Virus record (IMG/VR): IMGVR_UViG_2703718859_000024 | Direction: 5' to 3' (one strand) | DNA: 7,944 nt | Source of the DNA: a virus | Lineage: Duplodnaviria; Heunggongvirae; Uroviricota; Caudoviricetes | Part shown: positions 41 through 7,944 of the stretch, one piece after another | Position numbering within the stretch: the stretch's first letter is position 1 | Layout: each line of letters opens with the position of its first letter | Program-made: the position numbers and the translations under genes | Notes under the pieces: generated by a model | The model's input: only the letters and a program-made list of their open reading frames with translations | Database searches by the model: none | Told to the model about the DNA's origin: nothing

Positions 41-68
41 TGCTGGTGGCGGGGGTCGAACCCGCATA
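41..68. repeat. Direct repeat copy 1 (28 bp), resembling a tRNA T-arm plus acceptor 3' strand on the minus strand; candidate att core
   Basis: tgctggtggcgggggtcgaacccgcata at 41-68 versus tgctggtggtgggggtcgaacccacata at 146-173, 26 of 28 identical. Minus-strand reading GCGGG-TTCGACC-CCCGC-CACCAGC-A is a perfect 5-bp stem, a 7-nt T-loop of canonical form, and a 7-nt acceptor 3' strand. Confidence 0.6.
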
Positions 69-122
69 CATGATCAGCCTGTACAGGCTGGCACCGACTC
101 TACCCGTTGAGCGTACACCAGC
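41..122 (-). other. tRNA-like cloverleaf (non-canonical; possible tRNA pseudogene or displaced att-associated remnant)
   Basis: Minus-strand 82 nt: GCTGGTG (1-7) pairs perfectly with CACCAGC before the discriminator A. D-arm-like GCTC-AACGGGTA-GAGT has the conserved GG. Perfect T-arm GCGGG/TTCGACC/CCCGC. The central arm is a perfect 16-bp palindrome CAGCCTGTACAGGCTG (plus 75-90) giving a 5-bp stem with only a 6-nt loop. There is one extra nucleotide after position 9, and the 3' end reads CAC rather than CCA. Confidence 0.25.
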
Positions 123-145
123 AAAAAAGCGATGAGGTTGTTGGC

Positions 146-173
146 TGCTGGTGGTGGGGGTCGAACCCACATA
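146..173. repeat. Direct repeat copy 2 (28 bp), a degenerate second copy of the tRNA 3'-end-like sequence
   Basis: Same 28-mer with two substitutions, 105 bp to the right of copy 1. Minus-strand reading GTGGG-TTCGACC-CCCAC-CACCAGC-A. The upstream tRNA-like body is more degenerate than in copy 1. Confidence 0.55.
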
Positions 174-318
174 AACATCCCGCTTTCTGGAAGCTATACA
201 AGCGGGTGCCGCTTTACCGATTAAGAGTACACCATACAGCCAGGCAAAATAGTAATCATGCGTTATGTGCGGGTAAAGTCTGTTTCGTCTGGTAGCACCA
301 GATGAACGGGTATCATTA

Positions 319-394
319 TTTCACCTGATTTCACGTGATTTCGCTTAATTTCACAAAAATCACCTTCTTTCACCTTCTTTCACCTTCTTTCACA
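319..394. repeat. Helically phased array of eight TTTCAC-type 10-bp repeats, including three perfect tandem copies of CACCTTCTTT
   Basis: TCAC/TCGC cores begin at 321, 331, 341, 351, 360, 370, 380 and 390, each exactly 10 bp apart; CACCTTCTTT x3 sits at 361-390. The array is bounded by A runs and lies in non-coding DNA between the tRNA-like repeats and the Mor-like gene. Confidence 0.6.
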
Positions 395-528
395 AAAAAA
401 CAAATCATCATTAAAGCGCCTGATTCGCTCTCTGATGCGTTTTGGTGTTTTGTGGCGTCCGTGATGCCCTGAAAGGGGATTTTTTGCGATAGCGGCGCAA
501 ATATAACGGTTGCTGCTGGTATCTGTGG

Positions 529-936
529 TTAGTCTTGCGTGATTTTATTGGCGTGCTTCTTTCTCAGGCGTCGTATGATGTCGTAAATATGGGTTTCGGA
601 TATTGCGTACTCTTTGCGTAATGTCTGCAATTTTTCGCCGTTATCCCACCTGTAGTAAATCTCGTATTCGCGCAATGCTGCGAAAAGTGATCTGCCTGTT
701 GGAAGGTAAAGACTTCGCCCACCAGCATAGAAGGCGATTGCAGCGACAACCCGCTTTGCGATTCTGAAAGCGTCTGCCTCCTCCATGCCATTACGGGTAA
801 GCTCCGCTACTGAATGCGACACGATATCAGCAAGCGAATCACACCATGCATCACCTGGTTTATCTCCGTTGTCTATGGCGTCGATGAATTTAAGCCGCTC
901 GATGTCTTTTGGTACGTGATGGGTTTGCTCGTTCAT
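529..936 (-). CDS. Mor/C-family transcriptional activator (Mu middle/late operon regulator family)
   Basis: 135-aa ORF, ATG at 936-934 preceded by AAGAGG, stop TAA at 531-529. The C-terminal half (AFYAGGRSLYLPTGRSLFAALREYEIYYRWDNGEKLQTLRKEYAISETHIYDIIRRLRKK) aligns motif for motif with the Mu Mor region as I recall it (...LGGGQVYIPRGQALDSLIRDLRIWNDFNGRNVSELTTRYGVTFNTVYKAIRRMRR): GG, Y-x-P-x-G, NG, and the terminal IRR-x-R HTH. Confidence 0.65.
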   Translation of the reverse strand: MNEQTHHVPKDIERLKFIDAIDNGDKPGDAWCDSLADIVSHSVAELTRNGMEEADAFRIAKRVVAAIAFYAGGRSLYLPTGRSLFAALREYEIYYRWDNGEKLQTLRKEYAISETHIYDIIRRLRKKHANKITQD

Positions 937-1049: not shown

Positions 1050-1322
1050 TTACTTCTGGTAGCTACGCCAGATTTTTTTACATCTCCCTCCTATCCCCAT
1101 TTCTGCGTATGTGCGGTTTACTGCTTTCCTCAGGTCTGCGTAGTTCTCCTCTGGCGGCTCCGGTGGCCTCTGTGCCTTCCCGTAACACTCTGCCCTGCGC
1201 ATTGCCACCCGTTCGCGTTCCCTGTCTGTCTCCACCAGCATCATCACTTCGGCCCATCGCGCCGCCGTTCTCCGGTAAAAGCCTTTCGACTCCAGTTCTT
1301 CCGCTATGCGGTCATGTACCAT
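1050..1322 (-). CDS. Hypothetical protein, about 90 aa (ORF-track entry 1050..1442 trimmed to the internal ATG)
   Basis: ATG at 1322-1320 preceded by GGGGAG about 5 nt upstream, starting 10 nt after the SSB stop (TGA 1335-1333). Stop TAA at 1052-1050. The longer form would overlap the SSB C-terminus by about 110 nt. No family recognised. Confidence 0.45.
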   Translation of the reverse strand: MVHDRIAEELESKGFYRRTAARWAEVMMLVETDRERERVAMRRAECYGKAQRPPEPPEENYADLRKAVNRTYAEMGIGGRCKKIWRSYQK

Positions 1323-1332
1323 CGTTCTCCCC

Positions 1333-1743
1333 TCAGAACGGAATATCATCACCATAAGGGTCATCGCCTCCCGCTGGTGGCTGATTACCCTGTGTGCCTG
1401 TGGTCCTGCGTCTGCTGCCACCTGGTTGCGCCGTTTTCGCACTGATTACGCTGTCTGCAATAACCTGATAACCCTGCCGCGTTTCCCCGTTCTGTCCGGT
1501 CCACTGGCTGACCTGCATCACGCCGGATACGCTGATTACGTTGCCTTTCTCATGGTGTGCCAGTTGGTCGGCCTGTTTGCCAAATGCCAGGACCGACAGC
1601 CATAACGTCGCCTGCCCGTCCTGCGCCTGACTGCATGGCAGTGATACCGCCATACGCGCCAGCGTCATCGGTGTGCCCTTACTGGTCTGTTTTGTCTGCG
1701 GGTCGTCAATCAGTCGCCCGTAAGCTGCTATCTGTGCTGTCAT
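1333..1743 (-). CDS. ssb: Single-stranded DNA-binding protein (SSB) with conserved acidic C-terminal tip
   Basis: 136-aa ORF, ATG at 1743-1741 preceded by GGAGAGGTGG. The N-terminal ~110 aa fit the SSB OB-fold pattern (AYGRLIDDPQ...LWLSVLAFGKQADQLA...KGNVISVSGVMQVSQWTGQNGETRQGYQVIADSV), followed by a Gly/Pro/Gln-rich linker and a terminal DDIPF identical to the bacterial SSB tail. Confidence 0.85.
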   Translation of the reverse strand: MTAQIAAYGRLIDDPQTKQTSKGTPMTLARMAVSLPCSQAQDGQATLWLSVLAFGKQADQLAHHEKGNVISVSGVMQVSQWTGQNGETRQGYQVIADSVISAKTAQPGGSRRRTTGTQGNQPPAGGDDPYGDDIPF

Positions 1744-3879: not shown

Positions 3880-3952
3880 TTTTTTATCCTTTGTTCTGGT
3901 CAGTTACGCCGTTGCTGCATAAATGCGGTTAGCTGTGACTGTCGTTGCCTTA

Positions 3953-4267
3953 TCACGAATGGCGATAATCAGTACTGATATCTCCGTTACGGCAACGCCA
4001 GTTGTACACCTCCACAACCTCACTGAATCCGGCCACAAGTTCAGCCGTAACAGCGATGGAATCGCCCAGGCTGCGCAGTTCGTCCATGTCAGGATCAATG
4101 CTGTCACTCATGCCAGAAAGTAAGCGCCCTGTGATAGCCAGCCCTTCAAGCAATTTGCGGGCGTAGAAGTCAGCATCATCAAACATCGCTCTCGCTTCCC
4201 GTGCGTCAGCTGCTTTTATGGTTGTAACCAGTTGTTCAAGTATTCTGGTGTTACACACATCACGCAT
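3953..4267 (-). CDS. Hypothetical protein, about 104 aa (ORF-track entry 3953..4297 begins at TTG; the internal ATG is preferred)
   Basis: ATG at 4267-4265 preceded by GGGGGGA and overlapping the stop of the 154-aa gene by 8 nt, the same geometry as the junction between the two paralogs. Stop TGA at 3955-3953. No recognisable motif. Confidence 0.45.
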   Translation of the reverse strand: MRDVCNTRILEQLVTTIKAADAREARAMFDDADFYARKLLEGLAITGRLLSGMSDSIDPDMDELRSLGDSIAVTAELVAGFSEVVEVYNWRCRNGDISTDYRHS

Positions 4268-4724
4268 GACGTCCCCCCTGACGAATACGGGCGACAAAAA
4301 TCAGATGGGTATGCGGAAGTTGTGCGCGGGTTTCGCGTTCTGTTGCTGCCGTGGCGGTAAAGGGTGAGGCTTGTTTTTCATGGCACTGCATAAAGCGCCA
4401 GACAAAGTAAGGGCGTGCGGATACAGCCATGTGAAAGGCTCCTGTAGTGAAATTAAGGAGTCTCGCTACTACGCTGCTAAACATGGTGGCGAGACGTAAC
4501 GGGGTTAGCAGACTGGCACTACAGGAACCAGCGAGCGCAAAGGCTCCCCCGTTACGCCCCGCCATAATGCGGGTATGGGTAGGTTTACGGACGCAAAAAA
4601 ACCGCATATCGGAATGTAAGCGGCTGTCCGCTGTAGTATTCAGGCTGCTAAACCCGGTCGCCATGTGGGCGACTCCGGCATCATACAGCCCGAAAGAAGA
4701 GGCGATCAACATGTTTTTAAGCAT
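4260..4724 (-). CDS. Hypothetical protein, 154 aa; downstream member (A) of the tandem paralog pair
   Basis: ATG at 4724-4722 preceded by GGGGGTGAG and overlapping the 3' end of the upstream paralog by 8 nt; stop TGA at 4262-4260. C-terminus ...FVWRF...TERETRAQ...IFVARIRQGGRHA parallels ...FIWRF...TEREARNR...VFAARIRQGVSHA of the 181-aa protein. Confidence 0.5.
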   Translation of the reverse strand: MLKNMLIASSFGLYDAGVAHMATGFSSLNTTADSRLHSDMRFFCVRKPTHTRIMAGRNGGAFALAGSCSASLLTPLRLATMFSSVVARLLNFTTGAFHMAVSARPYFVWRFMQCHEKQASPFTATAATERETRAQLPHTHLIFVARIRQGGRHA

Positions 4725-5262
4725 GACTCACCCCCTGACGAATACGGGCAGCGAATACAGCGACACAACCGGACGGGCAACGGTTACGCGCTTCGCGTTC
4801 CGTCCAGGCGGTTACGTGGATAATTTGACGTTCTGACGTGCCAAAGGTGATAAAACGCCAGATAAAGGCAGTCTGAGAATGTACGAGGGCTGGGGTAGTA
4901 GCCATGATGGCAGCCTCCTTTATCGTTGGGATATACCCACCGCTGGAGGTTCCAATCTCGCTGGCGGTGGACTGCACGGAGTTGGAACTACTGGCGATAA
5001 AGGAAACCAGCCTGACCGAAGTCAGCCCCATACAGCCCACCATTGATAAGGTGTGCGTGTGCGCCGATACAAAAAAAGACGCGTTCGGCGTCTGTATCGC
5101 CTTTATCTCCAGCGGGGTTCCAATCCCGACACCCGTTTTATAAGGTGCGCGGGAATCATAGCCATTTTTGATACTGGCGATCAACTGATTTTCTCTGGCG
5201 GGTATTTGGCGCGGATGCCTGTTGCCTGTGACAATATGCACACGACTGTATACAATACACAT
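4717..5262 (-). CDS. Hypothetical protein, 181 aa; upstream member (B) of a tandem paralog pair
   Basis: ATG at 5262-5260 preceded by AAGGAG at about 8-nt spacing; stop TAA at 4719-4717. Homologous over its length to the next gene (shared N[MQ]LIAS, YD, FF, THT, WRF, TERE and C-terminal ARIRQG..HA). The corresponding plus-strand ORF is not preserved in the other copy. Confidence 0.5.
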   Translation of the reverse strand: MCIVYSRVHIVTGNRHPRQIPARENQLIASIKNGYDSRAPYKTGVGIGTPLEIKAIQTPNASFFVSAHTHTLSMVGCMGLTSVRLVSFIASSSNSVQSTASEIGTSSGGYIPTIKEAAIMATTPALVHSQTAFIWRFITFGTSERQIIHVTAWTEREARNRCPSGCVAVFAARIRQGVSHA

Positions 5263-6678: not shown

Positions 6679-7944
6679 TTAACCGTTAACCATTTTTAAC
6701 CCACGATAGCCACCTGTGGCGCTTACGCTCCCGCTTGCGGCTGCCTCTACAAAATTCCCCCACCACGCCATTAACGGGCGTCGCTGCTCGAGATAGGTTG
6801 AGCGGTTGTACGCGCGGCGAACCTCGTTTTTGTCTATGTGTGACAATGCCGCCTCGATTACGTCAGAGTCAAAACCTTGCTCGTTAAGTGCGGTACTTGC
6901 TATTGAGCGCAAGCCATGAGCAACCAGCCGCCGACCAAAACCCATGCGTTTTATTGCTGCGTTTGCTGTTTGTGTGCACATAGGGCGCTGCGGGTCGCTG
7001 TTGTGTGGAAATATAAACTCACGATGCCCGCTTATTGGCTTCATGACATCCAGAATGGCTAACGCCTGCTTTGAGAGTGGTATTACGTGTTCCCTGCGTT
7101 GTTTAAGTCTGTGCTCTGGTATGCGCCATTCCTTCGCCTCAAAATCAATCTCACACCAGCGCGCGCCAGCTGCTTCACCTGGTCGGCAAATTGTCAGTAA
7201 CTGCCACTCAATAACCAGCCGCGTTTGTCGTTCCACTCGTGCCGTTGCCAGCTTCTGCATAAAATCGGGGAGTTCTTCAGGGCGTATTGCTGGCATGTTC
7301 TTAGCGCTCGGCGCGTTAAATGCCTTGTTTATCTGTGATGCCGCATTCGCGGTAATCATTCCGGTATTAACGGCGTAATACATGACCTCATTGATTCGCT
7401 GCGCCGTTCTTCTGACGGTATCTAATTTCCCCTGGGCGGCTAATGGTTTTAATGCTTCGATGAAGTTGCTTGCGATCAGGTCTGCTACTGGTCTGTTGCC
7501 GACTGACGGGAATACATTACGCTCCAGCGAGCGCCATGTATCGCGTAGTGTGCCTTCTGCGAGTCCTTGCCCTTTTTTAAGTTCAAACCAAAGCGTAGCT
7601 ACATGCCTGAAGGTGTTCTCTCTCTTCATCACTTCACTAAGGCGCTGTTTCTCTCTGTGCTCTTTTGGGTCAATGCCACCAGAAAGAAGCGCCCTGTATT
7701 CGTCTTTTATCTTTCGCGCGCCCGCAATGCTTATTTCTGGATATGCGCCAATGCTTAACATGGCCCGTTTTTTTGTGTGTGGCTTGTAGTAGCGGTAACG
7801 CCACAAGCAAGAGGCGCTTTTGTGCTTAATCACCAGTTCCAGCCCTTCGCCGTCAGTGATGAAAAGGTCCTTTTTTTCGTTGCTGGCTTTTCGCTGGAGG
7901 CTTTTTATCGCTGCTGGTGATAAGGACTTAGTTTTTTTGGTCAC
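6679..7944 (-). CDS. int: Tyrosine recombinase, P4-family phage integrase; first codon GTG lies on the window edge, so the N-terminus may continue beyond the window
   Basis: 421-aa minus-strand ORF ending in TAA at 6679-6681. C-terminal catalytic region shows box I arginine (ICRPGEAAGARWCEID), box II HGLRSIASTAL...LSH and the tyrosine-bearing RRAYNRSTY. N-terminal region (GEGLELVIKHKSASCLWRYRYY...IGAYPEISIAGARKIKDEY) looks like the arm-binding domain of P4-type integrases. Confidence 0.9.
   Translation of the reverse strand: MTKKTKSLSPAAIKSLQRKASNEKKDLFITDGEGLELVIKHKSASCLWRYRYYKPHTKKRAMLSIGAYPEISIAGARKIKDEYRALLSGGIDPKEHREKQRLSEVMKRENTFRHVATLWFELKKGQGLAEGTLRDTWRSLERNVFPSVGNRPVADLIASNFIEALKPLAAQGKLDTVRRTAQRINEVMYYAVNTGMITANAASQINKAFNAPSAKNMPAIRPEELPDFMQKLATARVERQTRLVIEWQLLTICRPGEAAGARWCEIDFEAKEWRIPEHRLKQRREHVIPLSKQALAILDVMKPISGHREFIFPHNSDPQRPMCTQTANAAIKRMGFGRRLVAHGLRSIASTALNEQGFDSDVIEAALSHIDKNEVRRAYNRSTYLEQRRPLMAWWGNFVEAAASGSVSATGGYRGLKMVNG

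What the first reader, a model, noticed from the sequence alone, without database searches (positions are those of the whole stretch)
41..173. Two copies of a tRNA 3'-end-like 28-mer and an 82-nt tRNA-like cloverleaf at the far end from the integrase
The repeats carry a canonical T-arm and acceptor 3' strand on the minus strand, the same strand as the integrase. If the element sits in a tRNA gene to the right of the window, this is the orientation expected for displaced or duplicated att cores. Two copies 105 bp apart suggest successive integrations or a decayed tandem array. Copy 1 extends into a near-complete cloverleaf with a 6-nt loop resembling a tRNA-Tyr anticodon loop (UGUACA versus CUGUAAA), so it may be a tRNA pseudogene.
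Basis: seen in the sequence. Interest (0 to 1): 0.5.

Follow-up and report, generated by a model that had tools for sequence, protein, structure and literature searches.

The report
Two anticodon-less tRNA-like RNA genes
The two repeats are not integration scars but the tail ends of two genes for tRNA-shaped RNAs that lack an anticodon loop, and in Mu-like phages the same RNA gene always sits next to a predicted RNA-cutting domain of a head protein, so this island probably carries them as decoys against that enzyme.

Summary
The 28-mers at 41-68 and 146-173 are 26/28 identical, and their two differences are the two sides of one T-stem base pair. Each is the 3' part of a complete tRNA-shaped gene on the minus strand (41-123 and 146-240). 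They are not att cores. In relatives of this island the crossover is an 8-bp overlap at the 3' end of ileX, or inside mdtP, and lies outside the window. The genes belong to an apparently undescribed RNA family. It has a covarying acceptor stem, D, T and arm-base stems and intact elbow nucleotides. It has no anticodon loop: 39 of 49 distinct arms end in 3-4-nt loops. No CCA is encoded. In Sp18-type Mu-like phages the gene lies antisense between head genes F and G, with its own sigma-70 promoter. It occurs where F's C-terminal MuF-C domain (a predicted BECR-fold RNase) keeps an H-x-[DN]-S-x-[KR]-H motif. Motif-positive F genes have the F-G gap in 46 of 46 cases, motif-negative ones in 2 of 18. 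Phage Mu lacks both. The island has one copy of each of two phage types, a Mor homologue, and co-resides with such prophages in 12 of 14 genomes. My inference is that they are orphan tRNA-mimic antidotes to the MuF-C RNase. Their shared acceptor sequence also encodes Chi.

The parts
41..123 (-). tRNA-like RNA gene, copy 1 ('type 1'). It has an 8-bp closing/acceptor stem, UAC, a D arm, an extended arm (3 bp + 1x2 internal loop + CAGCC/GGCUG with UGUACA), a 4-nt variable loop GUAU and a T arm GCGGG-UUCGACC-CCCGC. It has no 7-nt anticodon loop and no encoded CCA.
   Evidence: Rfam tRNA 35.0 bits at 41-122. Family model R1 gives 87.8 bits at 41-123. The fold is a cloverleaf. It is 86% identical over 73 nt to the RNA gene of the Sp18-type Mu-like prophage. 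RefSeq labels it tRNA-Tyr.
146..240 (-). tRNA-like RNA gene, copy 2 ('type 2'). It has the same core as copy 1, but its arm is a 10-bp stem with a 14-nt loop. Its closing stem can extend to 12 bp with one bulged A (142-242).
   Evidence: R1 gives 70.9 bits at 146-237. RefSeq labels 146-240 tRNA-OTHER. It is 80-83% identical to the RNA genes of other E. coli Mu-like prophages, which also lie between F and G. The arm fold is, and the extended stem was read from the sequence.
41..68 (+). 28-mer repeat, copy 1. It is the complement of the T arm plus the acceptor 3' strand of RNA gene 1.
146..173 (+). 28-mer repeat, copy 2. It is the complement of the T arm plus the acceptor 3' strand of RNA gene 2.
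42..49 (+). Chi octamer GCTGGTGG, the complement of the acceptor 3' strand CCACCAGC of copy 1.
   Evidence: The window holds 10 Chi sites against 0.23 expected. The phage homologues have other acceptor sequences.
147..154 (+). Chi octamer GCTGGTGG inside the acceptor stem of copy 2.
249..277 (-). Weak sigma-70-like promoter, TTTACC (277-272) - 17 nt - TACTAT (254-249). Its -10 element ends 8 nt before the 5' end of copy 2. Copy 1 has no promoter of its own and would be co-transcribed.
   Evidence: My own scan scores it 8/12. It falls below the threshold of the tool's scan, which found nothing. Homologous phage genes have a promoter of at least 8/12 at this position in 36 of 38 distinct upstream regions, against 5% of control positions.
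124..145 (-). 22-nt spacer between the two RNA genes, ending in a U run before copy 1.
   Evidence: read from the sequence
529..936 (-). Context: gene for a Mor-family activator. Apart from the tRNA-like RNA it is the only feature the island shares with the Mu-like prophage.
   Evidence: RefSeq annotation. tblastn against L156 gives 47% identity over 116 aa, E = 1e-28.

Best explanation
Shown: the two 28-mers are the 3' parts of two paralogous genes for non-decoding, tRNA-shaped RNAs on the minus strand. They belong to a conserved RNA family. The family keeps the tRNA 'top half' and elbow: a closing stem of at least 8 bp, U8, A14, G18-G19, A21, a T loop UUCGAYC and a 4-nt variable loop. It replaces the anticodon arm with a hairpin of variable length and sequence, usually capped by a 3-4-nt loop.

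Shown: in Sp18-type Mu-like phages this RNA gene lies antisense, abutting the stop codon of head gene F, and has its own sigma-70 promoter. Its presence tracks an H-x-[DN]-S-x-[KR]-H motif in F's C-terminal MuF-C domain. Pfam assigns that domain to PF18819. Iyer et al. 2017 predict it to be a BECR-fold RNase that is active in Mu's orthologues and inactive in Mu.

Inferred: the RNA is the cognate partner of that virion-delivered RNase. Most likely it is a substrate mimic with no cleavable anticodon loop, which binds and neutralises the enzyme and so plays the role of an immunity gene.

Inferred: the island carries orphan copies of two phage types. It has no F gene, it has a Mor homologue, and it co-resides with these prophages. 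With both types, a cell holding the island, or a recipient that gets the island inside a helper capsid loaded with F, would be protected from either RNase variant.

Inferred: the two copies share one acceptor sequence because that sequence encodes Chi, in an island under strong selection for Chi.

My confidence in each step: tRNA-like family and not att, about 0.95. Non-decoding, about 0.9. Functional coupling to MuF-C, about 0.75. Antidote or decoy mechanism, about 0.4.
For: Structure. On 25 sequences, 91.8% of cells are paired and 14 of 20 pairs show double changes. None of 500 shuffles reaches this, and slid controls give 40-53%. On 37 further distinct sequences, 95.8% are paired and 18 of 20 pairs covary. 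There are 47 G.U pairs against 3 A.C pairs, which fixes the RNA strand.

No anticodon. Among 49 distinct arms the loop sizes are 3 nt (11), 4 nt (28) and 7 nt (only 2, and neither has U at the second loop position).

Position. The gene lies between F and G, antisense, in every Mu-like locus examined, down to 43% F identity. Its 3' end is within -9 to +28 nt of the F stop codon. A promoter is present in 36 of 38 distinct upstream regions.

Coupling. Among 65 distinct F C-termini, 46 of 46 measurable motif-positive ones have an F-G gap of at least 88 nt, and 42 of all 47 motif-positive ones give a model hit. Of the motif-negative ones, 16 of 18 have a gap under 21 nt and no RNA. Fisher p = 3e-13. 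Motif-less lineages (67%, 58%, 52% ... identity to L004 F) interleave with motif-bearing ones. Mu, D108 and vB_YpM_23 have a 7-aa deletion of the motif and overlapping F/G genes.

Cassette. In near-identical phages the swapped block is the last ~250 nt of F plus the RNA gene. RNA distance tracks C-terminal distance (rho 0.885 where the N-termini differ by less than 10%).

Island. It shares only Mor (47% aa identity) and the RNA with the prophage. Twelve of 14 island genomes also carry the Mu-like G gene, against 216 of 5412 others (Fisher p = 2e-15).
Against: Nothing here shows that the RNA is made, that MuF-C is an RNase, or that the two interact.

The motif-RNA association and the co-varying cassette are not corrected for shared ancestry. 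Both could partly reflect physical linkage, because the RNA gene is adjacent to the C-terminal coding region.

Five motif-positive loci lack a model hit. Two of them (L224, L229) hold a different structured RNA, one (L239) holds a tRNA-like RNA by my reading, and two (L228, L231) were not read.

The island promoter is weak (8/12), and the standard scan does not call it.

The additional matches counted were verified as Mu-like head regions in only three island genomes.

A positive role for the RNA (cofactor, packaged partner, processing signal) fits the same genetics.

No RNA antidote to a BECR-fold enzyme is known to me.
Confidence: 0.45

Rival explanations
1. The 28-mers are displaced or duplicated att cores left by successive integrations into a tRNA gene, and copy 1 is a decaying tRNA pseudogene.
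For: They lie at the end of the island far from the integrase and on its strand. In L001 the island does sit at ileX. Both sequences contain TGGTGGC, as does the 3' end of ileX.
Against: The junctions in two relatives define a different core and different island ends, all outside the window. In register only 14 of 25 positions match ileX. Both copies are full-length genes whose homologues covary in all four stems. The same island also sits inside mdtP, where no tRNA is involved.
Confidence: 0.02
2. They are working decoding tRNAs, as RefSeq labels them (tRNA-Tyr with anticodon GUA, plus an undetermined tRNA). The island would supply them for translation or as nuclease-resistant replacements.
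For: The RefSeq labels. The Rfam tRNA match above its gathering score for copy 1. Phages are known to carry tRNA-Tyr against a retron/Septu tRNA-Tyr nuclease (abstracts of bioRxiv 10.1101/2023.03.15.532788 and PMC13096335, listed).
Against: There is no 7-nt loop. GUA sits in a 6-nt loop of a perfect palindrome that folds as a tetraloop. The closest homologues have UCCG or UUCG tetraloops there. ARAGORN rejects both copies. There is no long variable arm, which bacterial tRNA-Tyr has (my own knowledge), and no encoded CCA. The closing stem is 8-12 bp.
Confidence: 0.03
3. The RNA is a positive partner of F rather than an inhibitor. It could be a cofactor, a chaperone or a co-packaged RNA bound by MuF-C. 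A satellite would then supply its own copy in order to be packaged or piloted by the helper's F.
For: The same genetic coupling as for the best explanation. Iyer et al. suggest RNA binding for MuF-C. F is annotated as a 'DNA pilot' in several phage records.
Against: The RNA is lost exactly where the catalytic-type motif is lost, while the rest of the domain is kept. That pattern is expected for an antidote and less so for a structural partner. Standalone copies next to CRISPR arrays have no F nearby.
Confidence: 0.2
4. The tRNA shape serves RNA processing or antisense control, not MuF-C. The RNA would be an RNase P/3'-exonuclease handle or a stable 5' cap for a transcript that runs antisense into F. 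Alternatively it would be a trans-antisense RNA against the helper's F-G mRNA junction.
For: The gene is antisense, abuts the F stop codon, and no intrinsic terminator was found downstream of the RNA inside F in L004. Its promoter overlaps G's ribosome-binding site. The island copy is 86% complementary to the helper mRNA. From my own knowledge, the P1 C4 and P4 CI RNAs are RNase P substrates, and the island has C4-like RNAs.
Against: Antisense pairing does not need conserved elbow nucleotides or covarying stems. The acceptor and arm sequences differ freely between phage and island. It does not explain the link to the MuF-C motif, or the standalone chromosomal copies that have their own terminator.
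Confidence: 0.15
5. The repeat matters mainly as DNA. The two 28-mers are kept alike because they carry Chi sites that protect the island's DNA from RecBCD.
For: Both copies start with a perfect Chi octamer. The window has 10 Chi sites against 0.23 expected. The islands have 1.2-1.7 per kb, against 0-0.3 per kb in the flanks and none in 40 kb of the Mu-like prophage.
Against: Chi explains 8 of the 28 bases. The other 20 are the T arm, which is conserved in phage homologues that lack Chi. This accounts for the shared acceptor sequence, not for the genes.
Confidence: 0.05

Closest known systems
Canonical and phage-encoded tRNA genes (Rfam RF00005)
   Same: A cloverleaf with acceptor, D and T arms. 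U8, A14, G18-G19, A21, the UUCGA T loop and the G53-C61 pair are conserved. Copy 1 passes Rfam's tRNA gathering score.
   Different: There is no 7-nt anticodon loop in the family. The closing stem is 8-12 bp. There is an extra nucleotide before the D stem (UAC). No CCA is encoded. ARAGORN is negative. True tRNAs score 20-47 bits with the family model, against at least 70 bits for the close family members.
tRNA 3'-end direct repeats at the ends of tRNA-integrated islands (attL/attR)
   Same: A T arm plus acceptor sequence lying near an island end, on the integrase strand.
   Different: It does not match the target tRNA. It is not at the junction. It is embedded in full-length genes. The real att overlap is an 8-bp sequence elsewhere.
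Non-decoding tRNA mimics: the tRNA-like domain of bacterial Y RNA (YrlA), the tmRNA tRNA-like domain, plant-virus tRNA-like structures, mascRNA
   Same: RNAs that keep the tRNA elbow and acceptor-T helix and have no decoding function.
   Different: Rfam YrlA and tmRNA give only chance-level matches (13.8 and 7.8-10.5 bits). The topology is not permuted as in YrlA. There is no mRNA-like domain. The genomic setting (Mu-like head operon, satellite-like island) is different.
Immunity genes downstream of MuF polymorphic toxins, and immunity proteins of the BECR-fold tRNases colicin D and E5
   Same: A small gene immediately downstream of the effector-domain coding region. It swaps together with that domain. 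It is absent when the domain is inactive. Orphan copies occur elsewhere.
   Different: Here the downstream gene is an RNA, it is antisense, and it resembles the presumed substrate. Known immunity factors are proteins. The activity of MuF-C is only predicted.
RNA antitoxins of type III toxin-antitoxin systems (ToxI-ToxN) and RNA decoys such as RNA anti-CRISPRs (my own knowledge)
   Same: A structured RNA that would neutralise an endoribonuclease or a nucleic-acid-guided enzyme by binding it as a pseudo-substrate.
   Different: There are no tandem repeats processed by the toxin. The protein fold is different. The partner is a domain of a virion structural protein. None of this was tested here.
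Phage tRNAs used against anticodon nucleases (for example T5 tRNA-Tyr against retron Eco7/PtuAB; bioRxiv 10.1101/2023.03.15.532788, abstract)
   Same: A mobile element carries tRNA-type genes in a conflict that involves tRNA cleavage.
   Different: Those are functional replacement tRNAs. These cannot decode.

Membership tests
Canonical tRNA | Match to the Rfam tRNA covariance model above its gathering score | tested here: inconclusive
   Copy 1 scores 35.0 bits against a gathering score of 29. Copy 2 scores only 20.6 bits, and through an internal alternative alignment.
Canonical tRNA | Anticodon arm with a 5-bp stem and a 7-nt loop (U33, purine 37) | tested here: not met
   Copy 1 has a 6-nt loop inside a 16-nt palindrome. 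Copy 2 has a 10-bp stem with a 14-nt loop. In the family, 39 of 49 distinct arms have 3-4-nt loops.
Canonical tRNA | Recognised by a tRNA gene finder with an assignable anticodon | tested here: not met
   ARAGORN finds no genes in the window or in homologous loci. RefSeq labels are tRNA-OTHER for copy 2 and for all phage homologues seen.
Canonical tRNA | Aminoacylation and 3' CCA | not testable with these tools
   No CCA is encoded after either copy. Charging needs an experiment.
att-site duplicate of the target tRNA | Sequence identity to the 3' end of the tRNA next to the integrase | tested here: not met
   14 of 25 positions match in register with ileX, all at generic tRNA positions.
att-site duplicate of the target tRNA | Lies at the island-chromosome junction as one of a pair of flanking direct repeats | tested here: not met
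   The junctions were mapped in L001 against the K-12 empty site, and in L155 inside mdtP. The duplicated overlap is 8 bp, and the island ends lie outside the window.
F-G tRNA-like RNA family of Mu-like phages (model R1, defined here) | High score with the covariance model built from phage and genome members | tested here: met
   87.8 and 70.9 bits, against 20-47 bits for true tRNAs. Caveat: both window copies were among the 25 training sequences, so their scores are partly by construction. An independent check is the 86% identity of copy 1 to the phage gene.
F-G tRNA-like RNA family of Mu-like phages (model R1, defined here) | Antisense position abutting the stop codon of a motif-bearing F gene | tested here: not met
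   The island has no F gene. The window copies are orphans beside mor and the iterons, so they are members by sequence and structure but not by context.
YrlA / tmRNA | Rfam model above its gathering score | tested here: not met
   YrlA scores 13.8 bits (gathering 69), and only across both copies. tmRNA scores 7.8-10.5 bits (gathering 47).
MuF-C / PBECR RNase domain (the proposed partner, in the phages) | Pfam PF18819 above its cut-off, with the conserved His-containing motif | tested here: met
   L004 F scores 29.5 bits and L010 F 30.2 bits, against a cut-off of 27.6. Mu gp30 scores 21.0 bits, below the cut-off, and has the motif deleted.
MuF-C / PBECR RNase domain (the proposed partner, in the phages) | BECR fold and RNase activity | tested here: inconclusive
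P4-like satellite | Core genes psu, sid, delta and alpha primase-helicase | tested here: not met
   The RefSeq annotation of the homologous islands lists integrase, HTH, Ash, Icd, DUF4222, RepA helicase, SSB, PerC and Mor, but no psu, sid or delta. I did not run my own HMM check.
Phage satellite of Mu-like helpers (proposed) | Mobilisation and packaging by the helper | not testable with these tools
   There is only indirect support. The island has a Mor homologue and shares the RNA with the prophage. It co-resides with the prophage in 12 of 14 genomes against 4% elsewhere.

The most novel reading that the evidence does not exclude
An anticodon-less tRNA mimic is the dedicated RNA antidote ('immunity RNA') of a virion-delivered BECR-fold tRNase, the MuF-C domain of head protein F, in a large clade of Mu-like phages. 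Satellite-like islands carry orphan copies as protection. This window holds two, one for each of two RNase variants. Some host chromosomes also carry orphan copies, abutting the trailer ends of CRISPR arrays.
Probability: 0.35. Interest if true: 0.85.

Novelty: new variant of a known kind. Interest (0 to 1): 0.72.

Why it matters
Three things would follow if this is true.

1. It would give a function to a set of genes that genome annotation currently files as 'tRNA-OTHER' or, wrongly, 'tRNA-Tyr'. At least 177 of 5426 complete E. coli genomes carry such a gene.

2. It would make a prediction from 2017 directly testable. That prediction is that the C-terminal domain of the Mu-family head protein F is an RNase injected with the DNA. 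The proposed test is a natural inhibitor, a two-allele specificity system and a natural inactive control (phage Mu).

3. It would be a case of immunity to a protein effector provided by a substrate-shaped RNA. It would also be evidence for satellite-like islands that depend on transposable Mu-like phages.

Independently of the mechanism, the result corrects the att-site reading. It also gives the true attachment overlap of this island family.

Tried and rejected
- ARAGORN on the window and on seven homologous loci found no tRNA-like gene.
- Rfam at permissive thresholds gave only the generic tRNA model. The YrlA and tmRNA hits are at chance level. The beta_tmRNA hit at 3902-3966 has no T loop and I consider it spurious.
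- I first took the perfect 24-nt direct repeat GTATGCCTTTTTGTATGCCTTTTT as the att site. I dropped this after the mdtP insertion showed the same repeats inside both island arms, with a different 8-bp duplicated overlap. They are more likely arm-type integrase sites.
- The genome-contig scan with the T-arm pattern returned mostly genuine tRNA-Leu genes of Xanthomonas, Rhizobium and Acidobacteria. Only four hits were family members.
- A head-protein-specific or structural role for the RNA looked unlikely. The RNA type switches between phages whose G and portal genes are about 97-99% identical and whose F genes are 81-93% identical.
- His identity through G-1:C73 is not universal. The window copies have U-1:A73.
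- I examined a permuted fold across the two copies, suggested by the YrlA hit. I dropped it because the phages carry a single copy.
- Literature searches found no description of this RNA. I searched for tRNA-like with Mu-like, satellite, decoy or anti-defence terms, and for the T-arm sequence itself.
- A PDB sequence search with MuF-C found nothing.
- The search for homologous proteins returned only 14 close, partial proteins, so the structure model rests on a shallow alignment.
- I did not use the metagenome scan or the representative-protein search.
Full report
WHAT IS THERE

The window is most of an ~8.3-kb integrative island. Its integrase reads leftwards from position 7944. At the opposite end, TGCTGGTGGCGGGGGTCGAACCCGCATA (41-68) recurs at 146-173 with two mismatches. 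No third copy exists, and none arose in 200 shuffles.

Read on the minus strand, each 28-mer is a T arm (GYGGG-UUCGACC-CCCRC) followed by CACCAGCA. The two mismatches are the two sides of one T-stem pair.

Both copies continue upstream into complete tRNA-shaped units. Copy 1 (41-123) matches Rfam's tRNA model at 35 bits, above the gathering score of 29, and folds as a cloverleaf. Copy 2 (146-240) is called tRNA-OTHER in RefSeq relatives, and copy 1 is called tRNA-Tyr. ARAGORN calls neither. The 'anticodon' GUA of copy 1 lies in a 6-nt loop within a perfect 16-nt palindrome. Copy 2 has a 10-bp arm with a 14-nt loop.

NOT ATTACHMENT SITES

The window itself holds neither island end, so I used near-identical islands from complete E. 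coli genomes. They are 96-97% identical over the whole window and 99.5-100% over 30-250.

In strain OkiPb01678 the island lies between ileX (tRNA-Ile CAU) and nfeF. In K-12 these two genes are 53 bp apart. In strain JNEC-KY203 the same island splits mdtP.

Comparing the four junctions gives the following:
- The duplicated overlap is 8 bp: CCCTGCTG at ileX and CCGGGATG in mdtP.
- The island ends read 'tctttgaactgaatgc...' and '...cgatttggtggc'.
- attP imitates the 3' end of ileX.
- These ends lie about 220 bp left of window position 1 and about 190 bp right of position 7944.
- A perfect 24-nt repeat (GTATGCCTTTTT twice) lies inside both arms in both insertions. It is more likely an arm-type integrase site than the crossover.

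In structural register the 28-mers share 14 of 25 positions with the ileX 3' end, and those are generic tRNA positions.

A CONSERVED RNA FAMILY WITHOUT AN ANTICODON

Pattern scans of IMG/VR and of one genome per species, followed by a covariance model (R1), recovered homologues in more than 45 loci.

On a MAFFT alignment of 25 sequences with a structure I specified (8-bp closing stem, 4-bp D stem, 3-bp arm base, 5-bp T stem):
- 91.8% of cells pair.
- 14 of 20 pairs show changes on both sides.
- No shuffle out of 500 reaches the observed values.
- Sliding the partners by 1-3 columns drops pairing to 40-53%.

A second, model-fitted alignment of 37 further distinct sequences gives 95.8% pairing, with 18 of 20 pairs covarying. 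That alignment leans towards the structure by construction. G.U pairs outnumber A.C pairs 47 to 3, so the selected structure is RNA on the tRNA-sense strand, which is the window's minus strand.

The tertiary-contact nucleotides of tRNA are kept: U8, A14, R15 with U48, G18-G19, A21, U54-U55-C56, A58 and G53-C61.

The region between the D and T arms is a hairpin of 4-17 bp. Its terminal loop is 3 nt in 11 of 49 distinct arms, 4 nt in 28 and 7 nt in only 2, and neither of those two has U at the second loop position. Tetraloops such as UCCG, UUCG and GCAA are common. No CCA is encoded, and closing stems run from 8 to 12 bp. In a Klebsiella copy the closing stem is followed directly by a U run. These RNAs cannot decode.

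Rfam 15 has no specific family for them. Five literature searches found no description.

WHERE THE FAMILY LIVES

In Sp18-type Mu-like prophages the gene always lies between head genes F (MuF/gp30) and G (gp31), on the opposite strand. This holds down to 43% F identity. Its 3' end is within -9 to +28 nt of the F stop codon, and usually within 3 nt.

A sigma-70-type promoter is placed so that transcription would start a few bases before the RNA. It is present at 8/12 or better in 36 of 38 distinct upstream regions, against 5% of control positions.

Phage Mu, D108 and Yersinia phage vB_YpM_23 have overlapping F and G genes and no such RNA.

COUPLING TO THE C-TERMINAL DOMAIN OF F

Between phages whose flanking DNA is 94-100% identical, the RNA type switches together with the last ~250 nt of F and nothing else. 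A control phage with a different mosaic block inside F keeps both.

That part of F is Pfam MuF_C (PF18819). Iyer et al. [quoted passage not shown] They state that Mu's own copy is inactive, while its orthologues are probably active RNases (PMC5512222).

Every RNA-bearing phage has H-x-[DN]-S-x-[KR]-H at the start of this domain. Mu, D108 and vB_YpM_23 have a 7-residue deletion that removes it.

I then examined 80 further F loci from IMG/VR, which gave 65 distinct C-termini:
- All 46 measurable motif-positive ones have an F-G gap of at least 88 nt.
- 42 of all 47 motif-positive C-termini give a model hit.
- 16 of the 18 motif-negative ones have a gap under 21 nt and no hit.
- Fisher p = 3e-13.

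I read three of the five motif-positive gaps that lack a hit. L239 holds a tRNA-like RNA that the model missed, and L224 and L229 hold a different structured RNA.

The motif-less lineages (67%, 58%, 56%, 54%, 52%, 51%, 48%, 47% and 42% identity to the reference F) interleave with motif-bearing ones. This points to repeated joint loss. I did not run a phylogenetically corrected test. Adjacency alone could explain part of the cassette pattern.

THE ISLAND

Against a complete Mu-like prophage, the window shares only two things: the RNA (86% over 73 nt) and a Mor-family activator (47% over 116 aa).

Copy 1 is of the type found in O157-type prophages. Copy 2 is of the type found in other E. coli Mu-like prophages. 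A second island family, with a different integrase and replicase, carries the same PerC-Mor-iteron-RNA-RNA end.

Of 5426 complete E. coli genomes, 14 carry this end module. Twelve of the 14 also give at least one further match to the combined island-plus-G query. The equivalent figure for the other genomes is 216 of 5412 with the Mu-like G gene (Fisher p = 2e-15). I verified the further match as a Mu-like head region in three of the 14. Strain relatedness is not corrected for.

The island has no F gene.

In the phages the acceptor sequences vary freely. In the island both copies read CCACCAGC, the complement of Chi. The window holds 10 Chi octamers against 0.23 expected. The islands have 1.2-1.7 per kb, and the Mu-like prophage has none in 40 kb. 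Selection for Chi in a freely variable stem explains why the two 3' ends look like one repeat.

MOST LIKELY MECHANISM

Shown:
- There is a non-decoding tRNA-shaped RNA family.
- Its gene is tightly associated with a motif-bearing MuF-C domain.
- Orphan copies of two types lie in an island that co-resides with the phages.

Inferred: the RNA is the partner of a virion-delivered RNase. Most simply it is a substrate mimic that lacks the cleavable loop and so inhibits the enzyme. In that role it occupies the position that immunity genes hold downstream of MuF toxins (PMC5576092). The island's copies would then protect its host cell from the RNase of either phage type. They would equally protect a recipient that receives the island in a helper capsid carrying F.

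I put the coupling at about 0.75 and the antidote mechanism at about 0.4. The main rivals are a positive cofactor or packaging role, and a processing or antisense role unrelated to MuF-C.

OTHER CONTEXTS

Standalone copies abut the trailer ends of a type I-E CRISPR array in Klebsiella spallanzanii (16 nt away) and of a type I-F array in Alishewanella aestuarii (about 128 nt away). Both are convergent with the array.

A reduced Mu-like element also keeps one copy. It encodes a repressor, a transposase, a MuB-like ATPase, an AAA_13 protein, Mor and a gpT capsid protein.

These placements fit a role in genetic conflict but do not prove one.

Noticed in passing
window 42, 147, 1373, 3187, 3649, 5402 (+) and 719, 1232, 2437, 2665 (-): The window holds ten Chi octamers (GCTGGTGG) in 7.9 kb against 0.23 expected. 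Two island families have 1.2-1.7 per kb, the flanking chromosome 0-0.3 per kb, and the Mu-like prophage none in 40 kb. This suggests the island exposes double-strand ends to RecBCD and has no inhibitor of its own.
   Followed up: partly
window 4482-4569, 4960-5047 (C4); 4595-4673, 5072-5148 (isrK); 4637-4686, 5109-5161 (c4-a1b1); all on the minus strand: There are two C4-antisense-RNA matches above the gathering score. Each is followed by an isrK-like RNA and a target-like site, within a ~457-bp tandem duplication that also carries two Icd-like ORFs. This looks like a duplicated P1/P4-type RNA immunity module.
   Followed up: no
window 311-408 and 1994-2186: There are two iteron clusters. One is of the TTTCACC type with 10-nt spacing, next to the RNA genes. 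The other is of the TACTCAC type with a 15-nt perfect inverted repeat, just upstream of the RepA-helicase gene. Both are candidate replication origins.
   Followed up: no
L001 8779-8883 and 16985-17134; L155 1290-1385 and 9480-9650: The same island sits at the 3' end of ileX in one strain and inside mdtP in another, each time with an 8-bp duplicated overlap. attP imitates the ileX 3' end. A 12-mer, GTATGCCTTTTT, occurs twice in tandem in both arms and is a likely arm-type integrase site.
   Followed up: yes
L045 4065-4135 (-); L067 4456-4527 (+): Standalone tRNA-like genes lie 16 nt and about 128 nt beyond the last repeat of a type I-E CRISPR array (Klebsiella spallanzanii) and a type I-F array (Alishewanella aestuarii). 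Both are convergent with the array. The Klebsiella copy has its own -10 element, and a U run follows its closing stem.
   Followed up: partly
L135 1-14830; L146 1-9180: This is a reduced Mu-like element. It encodes a CI-type repressor, an rve transposase, a MuB-like ATPase, a 786-aa AAA_13 protein, Mor, a gpT major head protein, DUF2971 and a tRNA-like RNA gene. No other head or tail genes are in the stretch held. It may be a transposable satellite or a defective prophage.
   Followed up: partly
L224 2829-2950; L229 2829-2935: Two motif-positive F genes are followed by a ~110-125-nt gap that holds a different structured RNA. It has an 8-9-bp closing stem and no UUCGA T loop. This may be a non-homologous replacement in the same slot.
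   Followed up: no
L039, L049, L064, L066, L069, L072, L079, L082, L088, L097, L102: Several Rhizobium species carry a tRNA-Leu-like gene that ARAGORN rejects. The anticodon-arm region appears shortened (…GGTAAGAAAATCCCTCGG…), while the variable arm, the T arm and the CCA are intact.
   Followed up: no
window 3902-3966 (+): A weak Rfam beta_tmRNA match (22.5 bits, gathering score 84). The sequence has no T loop, so I consider it spurious.
   Followed up: yes
window 1050-1442 / L001 10039-10308: The island encodes a PerC-family regulator next to Mor. From my own knowledge, PerC/Pch proteins activate the LEE virulence locus in EPEC and EHEC, and many carriers of this island are STEC.
   Followed up: no
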